A stretch of DNA of 64,000 bases from an uncultured Candidatus Saccharibacteria bacterium (GCA_964387675.1 CAYLWL010000002.1:22514-86513); one strand, 5' to 3'. Positions 3,745 to 59,665 are shown, counted from the stretch's first letter. Numbers and translations are program-made. Notes: a model not told the origin generated them from the sequence alone.

Positions 3745-3783
3745 TTATTAGAATCTAGAATCTAGAAAATAGAAAGTAGAATT
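3745..3783. repeat. TAGAA-family hairpin arm (left arm flanking four-helix-bundle gene copy 1)
   Basis: ttattagaatctagaatctagaaaatagaaagtagaatt. The inverted partner is at 4147-4188. Confidence 0.7.
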
Positions 3784-4128
3784 ATGAGTAATACAAAATC
3801 TTTTAAAGATTTAATTGTATGGCAGAAAGCGCGGAGTTTGGCGGTTGCGGTATATAAACTTTCTGAACAATTTCCTAACGTAGAGCTATATGGCCTAACA
3901 AGTCAAATGCGTCGCGCGGCCATTTCCATTTCTTCCAACATCGCCGAAAGTTACCACCGTTTTCATAGAAAAGAAAAACAGCAGTTTCTTTCTATCGCTT
4001 TTGGCTCCGGCTCGGAACTAGAAAGCCAAATAGAAATCGCCAAAGTTTTATTTCCAAAGCTGGATTATCGAGAAAGTGAAGAATTATTGTTGGAGGTTAT
4101 GAAAATACTAAATAATTTTCTACAATGA
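3784..4128 (+). CDS. four-helix-bundle protein (23S rRNA intervening-sequence protein / DGR Avd-like family), copy 1
   Basis: 114 aa. WQKARSLAVAVYKLSEQFPNVELYGLTSQMRRAAISISSNIAESYHRF matches the S23-ribosomal/IVS four-helix-bundle family. Flanked by inverted TAGAA repeats. Confidence 0.8.
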   Translation: MSNTKSFKDLIVWQKARSLAVAVYKLSEQFPNVELYGLTSQMRRAAISISSNIAESYHRFHRKEKQQFLSIAFGSGSELESQIEIAKVLFPKLDYRESEELLLEVMKILNNFLQ

Positions 4129-5558
4129 TCAAAATCGAAAAATTAAAAATAGTTCTTCTACTTTCTATTTTCTATTTTCTACCTTCTCGTAAGCGGGGGC
4201 AGTCCACGATTGAGATTTTGATCGCGGTGACGATTCTGACCGCGGTTTTGACGAGCGCCGCCGCGCTCATTTTCGGCAGCCAATCGCTCTCGGTTGATTC
4301 CGCGGAAAGTAATCAGGCATTGCGTCTCGCCGAACAGGGCTTGGAGGGCGTCAAAAATCAGGCCAGATACGACTTCCTCAACATCGTTTCGAGCACCGTG
4401 ACGCAGGGTGAGTTCACGAAAAACATCATTGTCTCGAATGTAGGCGCGAACACGAAGCAAGTGGTAAGCCGCGTTACGTGGAGCACCGATCCGCAGAGAA
4501 CCCAGCAAGTCGAACTCGTGACGCTTGTGACGGATTGGCGCGGCGTGCAGGACACCGGCGGAGACACGGGGAGCGGCGGCGGTGGCGGCGGCGCTTCTGG
4601 CGACTGGTGCAATCCCGCAACCCTCGGCACGATCGATTTGGGATCGGGTGAGTCGGCGACGGGCATCGATGTGATCGCAACAACGACCTATATGACGGCA
4701 GTCGCTTCCTCCCCGAGCAAGAAGGACTTTTTCATCGTTGATGTTTCCAATTCCAGCACTCCTTCCATTATCGGGTCCATAGACACCGGGCCGGGACTCA
4801 ATGCTCTGGACGTGACGGCAAACTACGCTTATGTCGCGAGCGACGACAGCTCCAAGCAATTCCAAGCCATCGACGTCAGCAACAAGACCAGCCCGGTTCT
4901 CGTTGCATCCACCACTCTTACGAGCAATTCCGCCGTTGGACGGAGTATTTTTTACCATAATCAAAAAGTATATATCGGCACGGACGACAATAGTGGAAAC
5001 GAATTCCAGATTATCGACGTGGCCACTCCCGCAACCCCCGTGATTTTGGGAAGAGCTTCTTTGGATGAAGATGTGAATTCCATTTACGTGAGCGGGAACA
5101 AGGCATATCTTGCAACATCCGATACGTCGAAAGACGTGCAGATTTTCGATGTGTCGACTTCATCCGCGCCCGCGCTTCTTGGCACGTATGACATTTCGGG
5201 TGCCGGAGAAACGAAATGGCTGTATGTGGTTGGCACGAAAATGTATGTGGGCAGAGAAACCGGAGGAGATGAACTTTATGTATTGGATATTACGAATGCC
5301 ACTTCGGTGTCGGTGTTGGGCCATAAGGCGATCGGCAAAACGGTGAACGCGATTACAGTGCGCGGCAATTACGCGTTCCTTGCCACCTCCGACCCGAACA
5401 ACGAGCTCAAGATATTCGACGTTTCCAATCTTTCAAATATCACTTCCTGCAGTAACTTCAACTTTCCCAACATCGCGACCGCCGTCGATTTCGACGCCAA
5501 TCTGGTGTACACCGCCGTGCGATCGAACGACGGCCTGCGCATCGTGACATCGCAATAA
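4125..5558 (+). CDS. prepilin-like N-terminus fused to an LVIVD-repeat beta-propeller domain protein
   Basis: N-terminal KRGQSTIEILIAVTILTAVLTSAAALIFG is a pilin-type G/x-T-x-E plus TM. A Gly-rich linker (GGDTGSGGGGGGASGD) is followed by at least six repeats of the pattern xxIxDVSNxSxPxxxG (FIVDVSNSSTPSIIGS, QAIDVSNKTSPVLVAS, QIIDVATPATPVILGR, QIFDVSTSSAPALLGT, YVLDITNATSVSVLGH, KIFDVSNLSNITSCS). These are typical of LVIVD repeats. True start codon uncertain. Confidence 0.65.
   Translation: MIKIEKLKIVLLLSIFYFLPSRKRGQSTIEILIAVTILTAVLTSAAALIFGSQSLSVDSAESNQALRLAEQGLEGVKNQARYDFLNIVSSTVTQGEFTKNIIVSNVGANTKQVVSRVTWSTDPQRTQQVELVTLVTDWRGVQDTGGDTGSGGGGGGASGDWCNPATLGTIDLGSGESATGIDVIATTTYMTAVASSPSKKDFFIVDVSNSSTPSIIGSIDTGPGLNALDVTANYAYVASDDSSKQFQAIDVSNKTSPVLVASTTLTSNSAVGRSIFYHNQKVYIGTDDNSGNEFQIIDVATPATPVILGRASLDEDVNSIYVSGNKAYLATSDTSKDVQIFDVSTSSAPALLGTYDISGAGETKWLYVVGTKMYVGRETGGDELYVLDITNATSVSVLGHKAIGKTVNAITVRGNYAFLATSDPNNELKIFDVSNLSNITSCSNFNFPNIATAVDFDANLVYTAVRSNDGLRIVTSQ
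4147..4188. repeat. TAGAA-family hairpin arm (right arm); also encodes N-terminus of the following pilin-like ORF
   Basis: tagttcttctactttctattttctattttctaccttctcg is the reverse-complement partner of 3745-3783. It translates in frame as VLLLSIFYFLPSR preceding KRG|QSTIE. Confidence 0.7.
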
Positions 5559-6648: not shown

Positions 6649-6691
6649 TTAGAAAGTAGAATTTAGAAAATAGAAAGTAGAATCTGGAAAA
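6649..6691. repeat. TAGAA-family hairpin arm
   Basis: ttagaaagtagaatttagaaaatagaaagtagaatctggaaaa. Partner at 6710-6747. Confidence 0.65.
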
Positions 6692-6693
6692 CT

Positions 6694-7191
6694 ATGAAAA
6701 ATTTAAAAACAACTTCTATTTTCTATTTTCTAGATTCTAGATTCTCGAATAAGGGTTTCACTTTGATAGAGGTCGTCATATCGGTGGCAATCATTACGCT
6801 CCTTACGGTTGCTGCCATTGTTATTCTCGATCCCGCTCGGCAGTTTGCCAAATCGAGAAACACACAGCGCTGGTCGGATGTGAATGTGATTTTGAATGCG
6901 GTTGGGCAAAACACCGTTGACAACCGCGGAACTTTTTCGTGCAGTTCCGGCGGGATTCCCACGACTACGACGAGGATGGCGTCCAGCAGTCCGAACTACA
7001 ATATCGCGCCGTGCCTTGTAGCGACCTATTTAAGCGCCTTGCCGTTCGATCCGGCAACGAGCGGCGCGAAGTGGACGAGCGTAACCGATTACGACACCGC
7101 TTATAACATCCTGCGAAACGCCACAACCGGCCGCGTGACGATTTCCGCTCCGGCGGCCGAACTTGGGGAGAGCGTTACGGTCACGAGGTAG
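6694..7191 (+). CDS. prepilin-type N-terminal cleavage/methylation domain protein (pilin)
   Basis: MKNLKTTSIFYFLDSRFSNKG|FTLIEVVISVAIITLLTVAAIVIL. Confidence 0.8.
   Translation: MKNLKTTSIFYFLDSRFSNKGFTLIEVVISVAIITLLTVAAIVILDPARQFAKSRNTQRWSDVNVILNAVGQNTVDNRGTFSCSSGGIPTTTTRMASSSPNYNIAPCLVATYLSALPFDPATSGAKWTSVTDYDTAYNILRNATTGRVTISAPAAELGESVTVTR
6710..6747. repeat. TAGAA-family hairpin arm encoding pilin leader
   Basis: aacttctattttctattttctagattctagattctcg translates as TSIFYFLDSRFS before NKG|FTLIEV. Confidence 0.65.
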
Positions 7192-18512: not shown

Positions 18513-18621
18513 TTTACACCCCTCTATATTACTTTTTGCGCTGCGTGTATTCTATGTGTTTGAAAATAATTTGTCAAACGTCGCGCGGAGATGGTATTAT
18601 GTTTGAGAAAATGCCCGGGAG

Positions 18622-18685
18622 TCCTGCCTGCCGGCAGGCAAGGCCTGTCTGCCGGCAGGCAGGCCTGCCTACCGGCAGACAGGGA
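18622..18685. repeat. GC-rich palindromic repeat (GCCTGCCGGCAGGCAGG units)
   Basis: cctgcctgccggcaggcaaggcctgtctgccggcaggcaggcctgcctaccggcagacaggg. Same family at 54726-54768. Confidence 0.75.
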
Positions 18686-25874: not shown

Positions 25875-26228
25875 ATGAACATGTTGAGCAAGGACGGCAT
25901 TTTGAAATTCAGGATCGTTTACTCAATGTTTCTTTTTGATTTCGCTTTGGTTCTCGGCGGTGTGCTGTGGGCTTATTTCTCTCTACGAAACGCGAGCGGG
26001 CCGGTGGTCATCCACTTTAACGACATTGCCGGCATCAACCGTATCGGAAGTTTCTGGGACGTGGTTGGAATCGGCGTAACGGGCCTTGCCATAGTCGTTC
26101 TTAACTTATTTATAGCTCTCGAGTTCGAAAAAAGAGACCGATTTTGGGGGAAGCTGGCGGCCGCTTTCACGGTCGTTGTGAGCATCTTGATTTTTATAGC
26201 GTTAGCGGCTATCATATCTGTAAACTAA
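25875..26228 (+). CDS. hypothetical small membrane protein
   Basis: 117 aa with 3 predicted TM helices. Confidence 0.4.
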   Translation: MNMLSKDGILKFRIVYSMFLFDFALVLGGVLWAYFSLRNASGPVVIHFNDIAGINRIGSFWDVVGIGVTGLAIVVLNLFIALEFEKRDRFWGKLAAAFTVVVSILIFIALAAIISVN

Positions 26229-26309
26229 GAAAGTAGAAATGAGATATGAGAAATGAGGAACGCGTGCCCCTAGCCCCTAATCTCTCATTTCTAATTTCTC
26301 GTCTCTAAA
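26226..26309. repeat. ATGAGA-family ORF-less hairpin element
   Basis: aagaaagtagaaatgagatatgagaaatgaggaacg cgtgcccctagcccc taatctctcatttctaatttctcgtctctaaac. Confidence 0.75.
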
Positions 26310-28234: not shown

Positions 28235-28265
28235 AGATTAGAGATGAGAAATGAGATATTAGGAT
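28222..28265. repeat. ATGAGA-family hairpin arm (left arm flanking four-helix-bundle copy 3)
   Basis: tagagattagagatgagaaatgagatattaggatatgagc. Confidence 0.7.
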
Positions 28266-28637
28266 ATGAGCAATGAAAAATTTATTTTTGAAGATTTAAG
28301 GGTTTATCACGGGGCATTAAAACTTTCAGTGGAGCTTACTAAGCTGGCTACGAAATTTCCACACGACTATTCGAGAATACAAAATCAATTAATTGGAGCA
28401 GCTATTTCTGTTCCCTTGAATCTCGCCGAGGGTTCTGGAAGGGAAAGCGATAAGGATAAAAAGAATTTTTATAGAATTAGTAGATCATCTATTTTTGAAC
28501 TCGTGCCTCTTATTGATATAATTTACGAACTAGGACTCATAGGAAGCGACAAGCGAGATGAAATTCGTCACGAAGTTGCGGAACTTTCGCGAATTGTTTC
28601 CACCTTAATGAAAAACAAAGTTTCTCAAAAGTCCTAA
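28266..28637 (+). CDS. four-helix-bundle protein (23S rRNA IVS protein / Avd-like), copy 3
   Basis: MSNEKFIFEDLRVYHGALKLSVELTKLATKFPHDYSRIQNQLIGAAISVPLNLAEGSGR. Confidence 0.8.
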   Translation: MSNEKFIFEDLRVYHGALKLSVELTKLATKFPHDYSRIQNQLIGAAISVPLNLAEGSGRESDKDKKNFYRISRSSIFELVPLIDIIYELGLIGSDKRDEIRHEVAELSRIVSTLMKNKVSQKS

Positions 28638-28662
28638 TTTCTCATTTCTAATATCTCATCTC
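28625..28662. repeat. ATGAGA-family hairpin arm (right arm)
   Basis: cctaatttctcatttctaatatctcatctctaaat. The same right arm recurs at 59630-59665 and 36765-36780. Confidence 0.7.
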
Positions 28663-28667
28663 TAAAT

Positions 28668-42528: not shown

Positions 42529-43101
42529 TCAAGCGTGTTTATCGATTCTTTCAACATAATCCCCGGTTTCGGTGTTGATTCGTATGACATCCCCTTGATT
42601 TATGAAAAGGGGAGCCGAGACCTTCGCGCCGCCCTCGAGCGTAACCACTTTCGTTCCGCCCTGGGCGGTGTTGCCGCGTATCGCCGGCGGCGCTTCGGCA
42701 ACTTCAAAATCCATTTTGATCGGAAGTTTGACGTTGATTATTTTTTCACCGAACATCAGCAACTCCACTTTTGTGTTCGGTTTCAGAAATTGTCTCGGTT
42801 CGCCCAATGTCTCTGCGGGTATGGAAAATCTGTTTTTGGGATTATGTTCTTCGGTAAACCAATATTGGTCGCGATGGGCGTAGATGAATATGGCCGGCTT
42901 TTTTTCTGTCTCCGTTTCTTCAAAATAATCGCTCTGCTGGAAGTTGCGGTCCAACACTTTTCCGGTGACGAGATTTCGGATCTTCGTTTGCACCACCGCT
43001 TTGCGCTGTTGCATCCGCAAAAAATGGGACTCCAAGACCTCGTACGGGTCGCCGTCCATGACGAACATTATTCCTTTGGTGAGGTCGGTGTAGGAAAGCA
43101 T
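42529..43101 (-). CDS. efp: elongation factor P
   Basis: MLSYTDLTKGIMFVMDGDPYEVLESHFLRMQQRKAVVQTKIRNLVTGKV... matches EF-P domain I-III architecture. Confidence 0.85.
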   Translation of the reverse strand: MLSYTDLTKGIMFVMDGDPYEVLESHFLRMQQRKAVVQTKIRNLVTGKVLDRNFQQSDYFEETETEKKPAIFIYAHRDQYWFTEEHNPKNRFSIPAETLGEPRQFLKPNTKVELLMFGEKIINVKLPIKMDFEVAEAPPAIRGNTAQGGTKVVTLEGGAKVSAPLFINQGDVIRINTETGDYVERIDKHA

Positions 43102-43110
43102 TGTTTAATA

Positions 43111-43140
43111 AGTGTCAGGTGTCAGGTGTCAGGTGTCAAG
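43111..43140. repeat. GTGTCAG tandem heptamer repeat
   Basis: gtgtcaggtgtcaggtgtcaggtgtcaag directly upstream of the efp start. Confidence 0.8.
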
Positions 43141-43252
43141 CACGACCCCTCCCAAAAAGCTGTTGCAATCAAAAACCGCGCCGATTTCTCGGAGCGGTTT
43201 TTGCGGCGAATGTCGGCTGCTAAAAGCTAATAGCTAAAACCTATCACCTCGT

Positions 43253-43555
43253 TTAGTACTCTTCCCTGCGGGGCGGTCGTTCGCCTCGGGTGCTTCCTTC
43301 CGGCTCTTCAATCTTGAGATTGACGCGGGCATTGTTCTTAATGCCTACGATCCTCAAAAGAGAACGGATGGACTTGGCGGTGGCTCCTTGTCTTCCGACA
43401 ACTTGCCCCATATCCATCGGATGTACTTTTAAGGAAAGCAGCACTCCCATCTCATCGACTTTCCGGTCGACTTTCACGTCATCCGGATGATCAACGAGGG
43501 ATTTAATCAGGTATTCAAGAAATTCCTGATCCGTCGCTGTTGCTTTGCTGGACAT
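43253..43555 (-). CDS. KH-domain RNA-binding protein (YlqC/UPF0109-like)
   Basis: GVLLSLKVHPMDMGQVVGRQGATAKSIRSLLRIVG matches the KH GxxG loop. Gene order rpsP-KH is conserved. Confidence 0.65.
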   Translation of the reverse strand: MSSKATATDQEFLEYLIKSLVDHPDDVKVDRKVDEMGVLLSLKVHPMDMGQVVGRQGATAKSIRSLLRIVGIKNNARVNLKIEEPEGSTRGERPPRREEY

Positions 43556-43572
43556 AATCTTTTTCTGATTCA

Positions 43573-43934
43573 GACCCCATCTCAAAAATAATCATCATAG
43601 TGCTTCAAGTGCTTATTTTTGAGATAGGGTCTCCCTTCGACCTTTCTTTTCTTTCGGTCCATTGACTTCGTTGAGGAGGCGATGCCGAGAATGAATCTAG
43701 GCATCGCCTGAAGTGAGTGGGGGATGGGAGGACTAACCTCCATTGCCGGGTGTTGCCGATCGAAGTTCTGCCAGAGTTTCCGGATTAAGAGTCCGGGCTT
43801 GTGACAGCACCGCCGTTCACCCAAGCACCGCAACCGTGGCCTTTGGTCACGGGGGACGCGCGATTTTTATCAAGGACAGCGCTTATTGTCCCTCACACCC
43901 CACACATTATGAGGATTTCTCCTCAACGAAGTCA
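43573..43934. other. non-coding structured element between rpsP and KH gene: local hairpin plus a 273-bp unit bounded by 17-bp inverted repeats
   Basis: Hairpin accccatctcaaaaata...tatttttgagatagggt (43573-43632). Terminal inverted repeat ttgacttcgttgaggag (43662-43678) / ctcctcaacgaagtcaa (43918-43934). Several internal hairpins. Confidence 0.5.
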
Positions 43935-43997
43935 ACGAGCTTCCTTCTGGATTATTACCGAGTAATTATAATCCCATTTCAAAACCTTGTCAAGCGA

Positions 43998-44387
43998 TTA
44001 CTCGGTTGCTGGTTTTTCGGTTGGCGCGGCTGTTTCCGTGGTCGGGGTCCCCGAAACTTCGGCTGTCGGAGCAACCGTTTCGGGAGTCGCTGCGGTTGCG
44101 GCAGGCGCTTCAACCTTTTCCGGTTTATTTATTTTGATCGCGATTTTCGGGCCGCTCACGGCGCCCGCTTTTACCAAGAGATTCCACACCGTTGGCGTGG
44201 GCTTGGCTCCCGATTTTATCCAGTACGCGACTCTCTCTTTCTCCGCGCTCACGGCTTTCGTGAAGGGGTTGTAGGAGCCCACGTCCTCAACCGGCGGCGC
44301 GATAAGCCGGGACCGTTTTTCGGCCACCACGATTCGGAAATGCGGCTGGTGTTTTTTGCCTATCCTTTGCAGTTTGATAGCAAGCAT
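43998..44387 (-). CDS. rpsP: 30S ribosomal protein S16 with Pro/Ala/Thr-rich C-terminal extension
   Basis: MLAIKLQRIGKKHQPHFRIVVAEKRSRLIAPPVEDVGSYNP. Confidence 0.85.
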   Translation of the reverse strand: MLAIKLQRIGKKHQPHFRIVVAEKRSRLIAPPVEDVGSYNPFTKAVSAEKERVAYWIKSGAKPTPTVWNLLVKAGAVSGPKIAIKINKPEKVEAPAATAATPETVAPTAEVSGTPTTETAAPTEKPATE

Positions 44388-54725: not shown

Positions 54726-54768
54726 CAGTGGCAGACCTGCCTGCCGGCAGGCAGGTCTGCCTGCCGGC
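54726..54768. repeat. GC-rich palindromic repeat (same family as 18622-18685)
   Basis: cctgcctgccggcaggcaggtctgcctgccggcaggcagggcg. Confidence 0.75.
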
Positions 54769-54828
54769 AGGCAGGGCGCTTGTTGACCCCGCACCTTCGG
54801 AGGCGTATTATTTTAGGAATCGATGCAA

Positions 54829-55806: not shown

Positions 55807-56082
55807 TTCTAGAACCCATCTCAAAATACCGCGAGCCGCGATAGAGGCCAATGTCCGCGAGGCCGCGGAGCGAGGACGAAGGTGTACCTTGTGGTACTCC
55901 GAGTCCGAAGCGACAATGGCCTAGTGGAAATTGGTCCTATCCCGAAGGGTTTTCGCTATTTTCTCCGCCCGCTGCGTTACGGCTCGGTCGCGGTGCATAA
56001 AGCACGGCTCTCTCGCCAAGCCTTGCGGATCGGAGAAAATAGCTGAAAACGCGACTTCGTGGTATTTTGAGATGGGTTCTAG
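55807..56082. mobile_element. 276-bp non-coding MITE-like element with 22-bp perfect terminal inverted repeats, next to tRNA-Ile
   Basis: tctagaacccatctcaaaatacc (55808-55830) / ggtattttgagatgggttctag (56061-56082). Nested IR cgctattttctcc/ggagaaaatagc inside. No ORF. Confidence 0.55.
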
Positions 56083-59566: not shown

Positions 59567-59665
59567 TTAGAAATGAGAAATGAGACATGAGACATGAGGA
59601 GCAAGAAACGAGACGTTGGCGATGCTGAACGACCTAATTTCTCATTTCTAATATCTCATCTCTAT
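59567..59665. repeat. ATGAGA-family ORF-less hairpin element between rsmH and ftsL
   Basis: ttagaaatgagaaatgagacatgagacatgagg...gaacgacctaatttctcatttctaatatctcatctcta. Confidence 0.75.

What the first reader, a model, noticed from the sequence alone, without database searches (positions are those of the whole stretch)
43573..43990. About 400-nt non-coding gap between rpsP and its KH partner holding a 273-bp IR-bounded structured element
rpsP and the KH-protein gene are normally adjacent. Here they are separated by a hairpin (accccatctcaaaaata/tatttttgagatagggt) and a unit bounded by 17-bp inverted repeats (ttgacttcgttgaggag ... ctcctcaacgaagtcaa) with several internal stem-loops. No ORF, no tRNA/tmRNA/SRP signature was recognised. 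Its size (273 bp) matches the MITE-like element at 55807-56082 (276 bp), and the hairpin shares the CCCATCTCAAAA(A)TA motif with that element's termini.
Basis: seen in the sequence. Interest (0 to 1): 0.5.

Follow-up and report, generated by a model that had tools for sequence, protein, structure and literature searches.

The report
Inflated, folded leader of khpA
The 442-base spacer between the S16 and KH-protein genes of this uncultured Liptonbacteria (CPR) genome is the KH gene's own promoter plus a long folded leader, enlarged by a clade-specific three-armed RNA fold with one fast-changing arm and by a shrunken copy of a small palindromic mobile element; it is unusual but built from known kinds of parts.

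Summary
The gap spans 43556-43997. It holds a 23-nt-arm hairpin (43572-43632) and a perfect 17-bp inverted repeat that bounds a 274-nt unit (43662-43935). Rfam and ARAGORN find nothing there.

Both genes lie on the minus strand. A 12/12 consensus sigma-70 promoter (43993-43965), conserved in relatives, sits just after the rpsP stop codon. The gap is therefore the khpA promoter plus a roughly 400-nt 5' UTR.

Three relatives carry the same closing helix P1, joining strands and hairpin P3, at 94-100% identity. khpA four-fold sites in these genomes are only 55-60% identical. Between the conserved parts lies a domain (P2) of 0, 128, 194 or 277 nt with no detectable similarity among genomes.

The 274-nt unit has no similarity to the element at 55809-56082, and the size match is coincidence. 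The 61-nt hairpin does belong to that element's family. A relative (L053) has a 165-nt version at the same site, and two relatives have the site empty. The family is widespread in metagenomes, usually flanked by TA, and occurs in many gene contexts.

My reading is a conserved cis-acting leader fold with a tolerated expansion arm, plus a decayed MITE-like insert. How it functions is inferred, not shown.

The parts
43998..44387 (-). rpsP (ribosomal protein S16), the upstream gene
   Evidence: PF00886, E 2.6e-17. The identical protein is named 30S S16 of Candidatus Liptonbacteria.
43965..43993 (-). Consensus sigma-70 promoter: TTGACA, 17-nt spacer, TATAAT. The -35 box is 43993-43988 and the -10 box is 43970-43965. 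The inferred transcription start is near 43958.
   Evidence: 12 of 12 matches. TTGACA plus a -10 box at the same place in L014, L015, L016, L021, L051 and L052.
43936..43958 (-). Conserved 5' leader segment (GGTAATAATCCAGAAGGAAGCTCG)
   Evidence: Alignable in L014, L015, L016 and L052.
43919..43935 (-). P1 5' strand (UUGACUUCGUUGAGGAG)
   Evidence: Perfect 17-bp inverted repeat. 16-17 of 17 identical in L014, L015 and L052.
43907..43918 (-). Joining strand J1/2 (AAAUCCUCAUAA). It can alternatively pair with the GAGGA at the top of P1.
   Evidence: AAATCCTC is invariant in all four genomes.
43713..43906 (-). P2, the variable expansion domain (194 nt, 58% GC)
   Evidence: Absent in L015, 128 nt in L052 and 277 nt in L014. 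No pairwise similarity (z < 2). Structure z is only -2.1 here, but -3.9 and -5.9 on the sense strand in L052 and L014.
43678..43712 (-). J2/3 (UUCA) plus hairpin P3 (GGCGAUGCC / GGCAUCGCC)
   Evidence: Inverted repeat I3. The stem is kept through compensatory changes (AUGC to AACG) in L052 and L015.
43662..43678 (-). P1 3' strand (CUCCUCAACGAAGUCAA)
   Evidence: The one-sided changes in relatives give three G.U pairs on the sense strand and one A.C.
43637..43660 (-). Small hairpin GGACC-(GAAAGAAAAGAAA)-GGUC containing the invariant box AAAGGTCGA
   Evidence: The box lies upstream of khpA in the window and in every one of the 9 distinct relative sequences that hold the leader (L020 and L017 duplicate two of them). 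About 4.6 chance matches are expected in all 601 kb held.
43572..43632 (.). 61-nt arms-only hairpin: a shrunken member of the AGAACCCATCTCAAAATACC-arm palindromic element family
   Evidence: L053 has a 165-nt version at the same site, and L015 and L051 have the site empty.
43253..43555 (-). khpA (KH-domain RNA-binding protein), the gene served by the promoter and leader
   Evidence: PF13083, E 5e-20.
55809..56082 (+). Full-length member of the family to which the 61-nt hairpin belongs. It is not related to the 274-nt unit.
   Evidence: More than 13 homologues at 72-88% identity. Consensus Y-shaped fold with 33 of 92 pairs showing compensatory changes.

Best explanation
The rpsP-khpA spacer is not a free-standing element. 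It is the khpA promoter plus a roughly 400-nt 5' untranslated leader.

**Layout, 5' to 3' on the minus strand**
1. A consensus sigma-70 promoter.
2. A conserved 23-nt leader start.
3. A three-way-junction RNA domain (43662-43935).
4. A small purine-loop hairpin carrying an invariant AAAGGUCGA box.
5. A 61-nt hairpin.
6. The khpA start codon.

**The three-way junction**
- It consists of a 17-bp closing helix P1, two short joining strands and a hairpin P3. These parts are held almost unchanged in the nearest relatives, so they are under purifying selection.
- It also has an arm, P2, which is a dispensable expansion segment free to change in length and sequence.
- Because P1 closes the whole domain, the insert folds on itself in the transcript. 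That leaves the flanking conserved leader parts next to each other, which is why so large an insert is tolerated.

**The 61-nt hairpin** is a separate event. It is the decayed, arms-only remnant of a MITE-like palindromic element that landed between the AAAGGUCGA box and the start codon.

**Inferred, not shown**
- The conserved P1/P3 scaffold acts in cis on the khpA mRNA. It could be a double-stranded processing site (RNase III type) or a stability site. It could also be a binding platform for an RNA-binding protein, possibly KhpA itself.
- P2 and the hairpin are passengers.
For: **Promoter**
- 12/12 match on the minus strand just after the rpsP stop.
- It is kept at the same place in six relatives, including those without the fold.

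**Transcription reads into khpA**
- No terminator-like site lies on the minus strand between the promoter and khpA.

**Conserved scaffold**
- The same P1, J1/2 and P3 occur at the same locus in L014, L015 and L052. The units are 362, 70 and 206 nt.
- P1 is 16-17/17 identical. Four-fold-degenerate sites of the adjacent khpA are only 24/43 to 27/46 identical.
- P3 keeps pairing through two-sided changes.

**RNA-level, sense-strand signal**
- The one-sided changes in P1 give three G.U pairs and one A.C on the sense strand.
- Whole-unit and P2 folds are more stable on the sense strand in L014, L052 and L015. P2 of L014 is -143.6 against -118.9 kcal/mol, with 13 against 4 G.U pairs.

**P2 is dispensable and variable**
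- It is absent in L015 and unrelated in sequence in the other three.

**The hairpin is an insertion**
- L015 and L051 lack it, and L053 has a 165-nt version with the same arms at the same spot.
- Its family occurs in many unrelated intergenic contexts, with TA outside 24 of 33 distinct arms.
Against: - No expression data exist. The promoter, the transcription start and read-through are sequence inference only.
- P1 shows no two-sided compensatory change. Its pairing is therefore supported only by perfect complementarity and G.U substitutions in four genomes.
- The window's own copy shows no strand preference (-121.6 against -123.8 kcal/mol). Its P2 is barely more structured than shuffles.
- The scaffold is confined to four genomes. 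Other close relatives (L051, L016, L019, L021) do without it, so it cannot be essential for khpA expression.
- Neutral sites are already 40-45% diverged. The dissimilarity of P2 therefore cannot distinguish drift with indels from outright replacement.
- The proposed roles (RNase III site, KhpA binding) are untested.
Confidence: 0.6

Rival explanations
1. The P2 arms are independently acquired mobile structured cargos that land in the loop of a conserved hairpin. They would behave like rRNA intervening sequences placed in an mRNA leader, cut out by RNase III at P1. On this view the window, L014 and L052 carry three different insertions at one hot spot, not one diverged segment.
For: - Three unrelated interiors and one empty state occur at exactly the same junction.
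- The same 'constant arms, variable cargo' pattern is seen for the AGAACCCATCTCAAAATACC arms.
- Two 23S_rRNA_IVP genes sit inside AT-rich hairpins at 3745-4192 and 28238-28665.
- A 20-nt GC palindrome is found inserted inside element-2 copies in L022 and L042, compared with L044.
- CPR rRNA genes are known to carry ORF-less inserts at stem-loop tips (PMC11270868).
Against: - No second copy of any P2 sequence was found anywhere.
- No boundary repeats were found.
- Four-fold sites are only 55-60% identical between these genomes. Drift plus indels could therefore erase similarity without any replacement.
- RNase III cleavage is untested.
Confidence: 0.2
2. The 274-nt unit is a MITE: a non-autonomous DNA transposon with 17-bp terminal inverted repeats, of the same kind as, or related to, the element at 55809-56082.
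For: - It has perfect 17-bp terminal inverted repeats, is non-coding and is 274 nt long.
- A real MITE-like family exists in the same genome.
Against: - No similarity to the 55.8-kb element.
- No target-site duplication. The flanks are ...GCTCG and TGGAC....
- No other copy in the 64-kb window at up to 3 mismatches, apart from one single-arm, chance-like hit.
- None in JGI metagenomes.
- Only single-arm, chance-level hits in IMG/VR.
- In all four genomes it sits at the same orthologous position. Its arms are conserved far above neutral sites, which an immobile MITE would not show.
Confidence: 0.07
3. The promoter drives a stand-alone or 5'-UTR-derived small RNA of about 300 nt. Its conserved terminal stem is the functional handle and P2 is a variable module, as in Y-RNA-like RNAs. 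khpA is only read through.
For: - A strong promoter lies 23 nt upstream of a long closing helix.
- The stem and P3 are conserved while the module varies.
Against: - The same promoter serves khpA in relatives that lack the fold (L051, L016, L021).
- There is no terminator after the fold.
- There is no other promoter for khpA.
- There is no Rfam match.
Confidence: 0.1
4. The fold is a riboswitch-type sensor that controls khpA.
For: It is a structured 5' UTR with possible alternative pairings: GAGGA of P1 against UCCUC of J1/2.
Against: - The bulk of the fold (P2) is not conserved even among the closest relatives, and is absent in L015.
- There is no terminator or start-codon-sequestering helix.
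- There is no Rfam hit.
Confidence: 0.03

Closest known systems
Intervening sequences (IVS) of bacterial 23S/16S rRNA genes, including the ORF-less inserts at stem-loop tips in CPR rRNA genes (PMC11270868; PMC4990558)
   Same: - An insert sits inside a conserved helix and is closed by its own long stem.
- It is sporadic and very variable between close relatives.
- It is tolerated because it folds away from the host RNA.
- The same genome carries 23S_rRNA_IVP genes inside hairpins.
   Different: - The host RNA here is an mRNA leader, not rRNA.
- Excision by RNase III is not shown.
- The conserved part (P1/P3) is clade-specific and not part of a universal RNA.
Bacterial MITE-like palindromic elements that are co-transcribed with genes, such as Correia elements of Neisseria, ERIC/IRU and RUP (comparison from general knowledge)
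   Same: This comparison applies to the 61-nt hairpin and the 55.8-kb element.
- Terminal inverted repeats and no coding capacity.
- Intergenic position inside transcription units.
- Size variants produced by internal deletion or insertion.
- TA next to most ends.
   Different: - No transposase partner has been identified.
- Copies differ by 12-28% between genomes, not the near-identity of recently active elements.
- The 274-nt unit itself fails the copy-number and target-duplication tests.
Structured autoregulatory leaders of ribosomal-protein and RNA-binding-protein genes, such as the L19 (rplS) leader of the same operon family in Firmicutes (from general knowledge)
   Same: - A conserved fold in the 5' UTR of a gene for an RNA-binding protein, behind its own promoter.
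- Conservation above the neutral level.
   Different: - No homology to any Rfam leader.
- Very narrow distribution (four genomes).
- No binding or regulation data.
Expansion segments or variable arms of conserved structured RNAs (from general knowledge)
   Same: A fixed junction with one arm that varies from 0 to 277 nt without disturbing the rest.
   Different: Such segments are described for rRNA, RNase P and tmRNA, not for a short mRNA leader hairpin.

Membership tests
MITE (tested for the 274-nt unit) | Terminal inverted repeats | tested here: met
   17-bp perfect inverted repeat. At most 11 bp in 200 shuffles.
MITE (tested for the 274-nt unit) | Target-site duplication flanking the repeats | tested here: not met
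   The flanks read ...AGCTCG | unit | TGGACC..., with no direct repeat.
MITE (tested for the 274-nt unit) | Several dispersed copies in different contexts | tested here: not met
   Only this locus in the window. No hits in JGI metagenomes. Only chance-level single arms in IMG/VR. All four carriers have it at the orthologous site. The rest of the genome could not be searched.
MITE (tested for the 274-nt unit) | Homology to the element at 55809-56082 | tested here: not met
   Local alignment z 1.0 and -0.4 against shuffles.
AGAACCCATCTCAAAATACC-arm palindromic element family (tested for the 61-nt hairpin) | Arms matching the family arm | tested here: met
   3 and 4 mismatches of 18. The motif is enriched, 7 matches against 1.5 expected.
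AGAACCCATCTCAAAATACC-arm palindromic element family (tested for the 61-nt hairpin) | Insertion polymorphism, with a larger homologous copy at the same site | tested here: met
   L053 has a 165-nt copy with the same arms, and L015 and L051 are empty. The L053 copy matches the family HMM weakly (E 0.02).
AGAACCCATCTCAAAATACC-arm palindromic element family (tested for the 61-nt hairpin) | Family interior (Y-shaped fold) | tested here: not met
   The hairpin keeps only the arms and a 15-nt loop. nhmmer reports no hit there.
AGAACCCATCTCAAAATACC-arm palindromic element family (tested for the 61-nt hairpin) | TA immediately outside the arms | tested here: not met
   24 of 33 distinct arms in the family have TA outside. 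This copy is flanked by GGG and GAA.
rRNA intervening sequence (IVS) | Located in a helix of 16S or 23S rRNA | tested here: not met
   It lies between rpsP and khpA, and there is no rRNA in the window.
rRNA intervening sequence (IVS) | Closed by a long stem, and sporadic or variable among close relatives | tested here: met
rRNA intervening sequence (IVS) | Excised by RNase III without re-ligation | not testable with these tools
   Needs RNA 5'/3'-end mapping or an in-vitro cleavage assay.
Any Rfam 15 family (SRP, 6S, RNase P, tmRNA, riboswitches, leaders, ribozymes) | Score at or above the gathering threshold | tested here: not met
   Nothing in the gap at gathering thresholds. At E up to 10 there are only chance-level miRNA or snoRNA models at a fraction of their thresholds. 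The same holds for the L014 homologue.
tRNA / tmRNA | ARAGORN detection | tested here: not met
   Five tRNAs in the window, none in the gap.
Cis-regulatory leader RNA | Position in a 5' UTR behind a promoter, with conservation above the neutral rate | tested here: met
   Promoter 12/12 and conserved. P1/P3/J are 94-100% identical against 55-60% at four-fold sites.
Cis-regulatory leader RNA | Demonstrated effect on expression or a bound effector | not testable with these tools
   Needs reporter or binding experiments.

The most novel reading that the evidence does not exclude
In these CPR genomes, hairpin loops may act as landing pads for unrelated cargos. On this reading the khpA leader hairpin, the AGAACCCATCTCAAAATACC hairpins and the AT-rich hairpins that enclose 23S_rRNA_IVP genes are all examples of one insertion mechanism. 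That mechanism would place structured RNA, or small genes, inside pre-existing stems. The stem then insulates the insert, or allows it to be excised. It would be an IVS-like mobile-element biology operating outside rRNA.
Probability: 0.2. Interest if true: 0.65.

Novelty: new variant of a known kind. Interest (0 to 1): 0.4.

Why it matters
- **Annotation.** An 'empty' 442-nt spacer and a 53-aa ORF called on public contigs resolve into a promoter plus a leader, and khpA gets its own transcription unit.
- **A candidate cis-acting RNA.** The analysis gives a concrete, testable leader element for a conserved RNA-binding protein gene in an uncultured CPR lineage. That element is the P1/P3 junction together with the invariant AAAGGUCGA box.
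- **Non-coding DNA in reduced genomes.** Even very small genomes tolerate large self-folding inserts inside transcribed leaders.
- **A dispersed family.** The work documents a widespread palindromic element family in Paceibacteria-type metagenomes. It has no match in Rfam 15, and two full-text literature searches found no description of such elements in CPR bacteria.
- **If the landing-pad reading holds.** It would link rRNA intervening sequences, 23S_rRNA_IVP genes and MITE-like elements in one mechanism.

Tried and rejected
**Known RNA families**
- Rfam at gathering and at permissive thresholds on the gap, on the L014 homologue and on the 55.8-kb element: nothing.
- ARAGORN: nothing in the gap.

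**Similarity of the 274-nt unit to other sequences**
- Against the 55.8-kb element and between the P2 arms of different genomes: none.
- P2 as a decayed 23S_rRNA_IVP gene: tblastn found nothing.
- P2 or the leader ORF as a real protein: its only database match is itself.

**Collection scans**
- Phage and plasmid collections by blastn: no match.
- JGI metagenomes for the P1 5' strand plus J1/2: none.
- IMG/VR for the P1 arm: 36 single-arm hits, which is about the chance number, and none with both arms.
- IMG/VR for a P2 hairpin: none.
- Genome collection scan with S16: only 42-53% identical relatives, which were uninformative.

**Small features checked and dropped**
- A second promoter-like site inside the unit (TTGACT, 18 nt, CATAAT; 43935-43906) is not conserved in relatives and was dropped.
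- A predicted pairing between the leader start and the start-codon region is specific to the window and was dropped.
- The simple scan finds no terminator after khpA. By eye, an imperfect hairpin followed by TTTTT lies at about 43169-43201. I do not rely on it.

**Literature**
- Searches for MITEs or palindromic repeats in CPR bacteria found nothing specific.

Full report
**1. What is there**

The window comes from a Candidatus Liptonbacteria (CPR/Patescibacteria) genome. The S16 protein is identical to one so named in NCBI.

Both flanking genes lie on the minus strand:
- rpsP, 43998-44387 (PF00886).
- A KhpA/B-type KH gene, 43253-43555 (PF13083).
- efp follows at 42529-43101.

The gap is 43556-43997, 442 nt. 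It contains three inverted repeats:
- A hairpin with 23-nt arms (43572-43594 / 43610-43632, 91% complementary).
- A perfect 17-bp inverted repeat (43662-43678 / 43919-43935) bounding a 274-nt unit.
- Inside that unit, a 14-nt-arm hairpin (43677-43709).

The longest perfect inverted repeat in 200 dinucleotide shuffles of the gap was 11 nt. The 274-nt unit folds with z = -7.6 on the minus strand and -6.8 on the plus strand. Rfam 15 and ARAGORN find nothing in the gap. Seven public contigs from related samples carry the gap with 100% identity, so there is no population variation to use.

**2. The gap is a promoter plus a leader**

Immediately after the rpsP stop codon, on the minus strand, lies TTGACA, 17 nt, TATAAT (43993-43965), a 12/12 match. 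TTGACA and a -10 box occur at the same place in relatives L014, L015, L016, L021, L051 and L052, whatever follows them. No terminator-like site separates the promoter from khpA on that strand.

In relative L019 the two genes are only 65 nt apart with no such promoter. In this clade, however, khpA has acquired its own promoter and leader.

**3. Anatomy of the 274-nt unit from comparison**

Three relatives carry the same closing helix at the same position: L014 (362-nt unit), L052 (206 nt) and L015 (70 nt). All four genomes share these parts:
- P1: 17 bp, 16-17/17 identical.
- The joining strand AAAUCCUC(G/A)NA(A)G.
- A 3' joining strand (UUCAA)UUCA.
- Hairpin P3.

P3 keeps its pairing through two-sided changes: GGCGAUGC/GCAUCGCC against GGCGAACG/CGUUCGCC.

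Between J1/2 and J2/3 lies a domain P2 of 194 nt (window), 277 nt (L014), 128 nt (L052) or 0 nt (L015). There is no detectable pairwise similarity in either orientation (z between -1.1 and 1.9).

Four-fold-degenerate sites of the adjacent khpA are only 55-60% identical between these genomes. Two conclusions follow:
- The near-invariance of P1, P3 and the joining strands implies purifying selection.
- The dissimilarity of P2 is compatible with either drift plus indels or replacement.

**4. RNA or DNA, and which strand**

In P1 the changes seen in relatives are three G.U pairs and one A.C on the khpA-sense strand. No two-sided change occurs.

Sense-strand folds are more stable than antisense folds in three of the four genomes:

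| Genome | Sense (kcal/mol) | Antisense (kcal/mol) |
|---|---|---|
| L014 | -187.7 | -170.0 |
| L052 | -91.2 | -84.5 |
| L015 | -38.1 | -31.1 |
| window | -121.6 | -123.8 |

P2 alone gives the following:

| Genome | z, sense | z, antisense |
|---|---|---|
| L014 | -5.9 | -2.95 |
| L052 | -3.9 | -2.75 |
| window | -2.1 | -2.3 |

The family as a whole therefore looks like a sense-strand RNA structure. The window's own P2 is its least convincing member.

**5. The 61-nt hairpin**

Its arms (AGACCCCATCTCAAAAATAA) resemble the arms of the element at 55809-56082 (AGAACCCATCTCAAAATACC), with 3-4 mismatches of 18.

Alignment of the leader's 3' part gives these results:
- L015 and L051 lack the hairpin.
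- L053 has, at the same spot, a 165-nt version with nearly identical arms.
- The window hairpin equals that copy minus about 105 internal nt.

L053 also carries a 274-nt copy, 88% identical to 55809-56082, placed 7 nt upstream of the efp start and flanked by TA...TA. The window has no insert at that site.

A scan of JGI/ENA metagenome contigs for the 20-nt arm returned 27 loci:
- About a dozen hold full-length homologues at 71-79% identity (72-88% when L014 and L053 are counted).
- Others have the same arms around unrelated interiors.
- The flanking genes differ widely: ftsW, ydjM, L25, comEC, era, pgm and a glycosyltransferase.
- TA lies outside 24 of 33 distinct arms.

The consensus fold is Y-shaped, with 33 of 92 pairs showing two-sided changes. 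Strand preference is not clear: G.U 39 against A.C 29. This behaves like a MITE- or REP-like dispersed palindromic element.

**6. How it most likely works**

Shown by the analysis:
- The position behind a conserved promoter.
- A conserved P1/P3/J scaffold.
- A dispensable variable arm.
- Insertion polymorphism of the hairpin.

Inferred:
- Transcription starts near 43958 and runs into khpA.
- P1 closes the 274-nt domain, so the flanking conserved leader parts stay adjacent. These include the purine-loop hairpin with the AAAGGUCGA box, which is found in every relative's leader.
- The scaffold acts in cis, as a double-stranded processing or stability site or as a protein platform. KhpA itself is an obvious candidate.
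- P2 and the 61-nt hairpin are passengers.

The scaffold is absent from other close relatives (L051, L016, L019, L021). It is therefore a clade-specific add-on and not an essential part of khpA control.

**7. Comparison with known systems**

The nearest analogues are listed here.
- **rRNA intervening sequences.** These include ORF-less inserts at stem-loop tips of CPR rRNA genes (PMC11270868). They share the stem-closed, sporadic and variable character, but the host RNA differs and excision is untested.
- **Co-transcribed MITE-like palindromes.** This comparison fits the hairpin family.
- **Autoregulatory leaders of RNA-binding-protein genes.** These share the position and the conservation, but there is no homology and there are no functional data.

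No defining test places the 274-nt unit in any named family.

**8. Verdict**

The feature is a new variant of known kinds. It is of moderate interest, mainly as a testable leader element and as one case of a wider 'cargo inside hairpins' pattern in this genome.

Noticed in passing
window 55809-56082; also L014 1464-1792, L053 633-905, L022, L025, L028-L030, L032, L036, L040, L043, L044, L047: The '276-bp MITE-like element' belongs to a widespread family with no Rfam match. There are at least 13 full-length homologues at 72-88% identity. The 20-nt arms are invariant, the consensus fold is Y-shaped with 33 of 92 pairs covarying, most ends are flanked by TA, and the gene contexts are varied. The same arms also enclose unrelated interiors (L023/L039/L048, L024, L026, L031, L033/L037).
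   Followed up: partly
window 3745-4192 and 28238-28665; arms-only hairpins at 6651-6745, 26228-26299 and 59567-59651: Two 23S_rRNA_IVP (PF05635) genes (3784-4128 and 28266-28637; E 1e-32 and 1e-22) each sit inside a 25-37-nt AT-rich inverted repeat. Similar arms occur elsewhere as plain hairpins. These look like IVS-type cassettes outside rRNA.
   Followed up: partly
window 18617-18683 and 54730-54775; L022 about 1100-1125, L042 about 2425-2445, L033: A 20-nt GC palindrome (CCTGCCTGCCGGCAGGCAGG) recurs in the window. In L022 and L042 it is inserted inside copies of the 55.8-kb-type element, while L044 lacks it. Palindromes are therefore nested in palindromes.
   Followed up: no
window 43637-43645 (minus strand); L014 3849, L015 1919, L016 2379, L019 2437, L021 3670, L051 833, L052 547, L053 4: An invariant box AAAGGTCGA lies in a small purine-loop hairpin upstream of khpA in every relative examined, including those with otherwise unalignable leaders. 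It may be the real conserved control element of khpA.
   Followed up: partly
L014 3858-3900, L016 2388-2430, L052 556-600: A third shared leader insert (CTTCGACAAGCTCAG...) follows the AAAGGTCGA box in three relatives but not in the window.
   Followed up: no
window 43957-43966 / 43997-44006: A 10-bp perfect inverted repeat (ACCGAGTAAT/ATTACTCGGT) brackets the khpA promoter and overlaps the rpsP stop codon. It is only partly conserved in L015.
   Followed up: no
window 43105-43140 (minus strand, upstream of efp): Three tandem CCTGACA repeats lie directly upstream of the efp start. In L053 a 274-nt element-2 copy is inserted at the corresponding place. efp appears to have its own very short leader.
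   Followed up: no
L014 1175-1372: A 65-aa HTH_23/HTH_28 protein, of the type found at transposase N-termini, lies next to the L014 copy of the 55.8-kb-type element. It may be a remnant of the mobilising transposase.
   Followed up: no
L036 7738-7934: A partial copy of the 55.8-kb-type element lies between tRNA-Cys and tRNA-Leu. In the window the full copy ends 24 nt before tRNA-Ile (56106). These elements often sit inside tRNA or operon transcription units.
   Followed up: no
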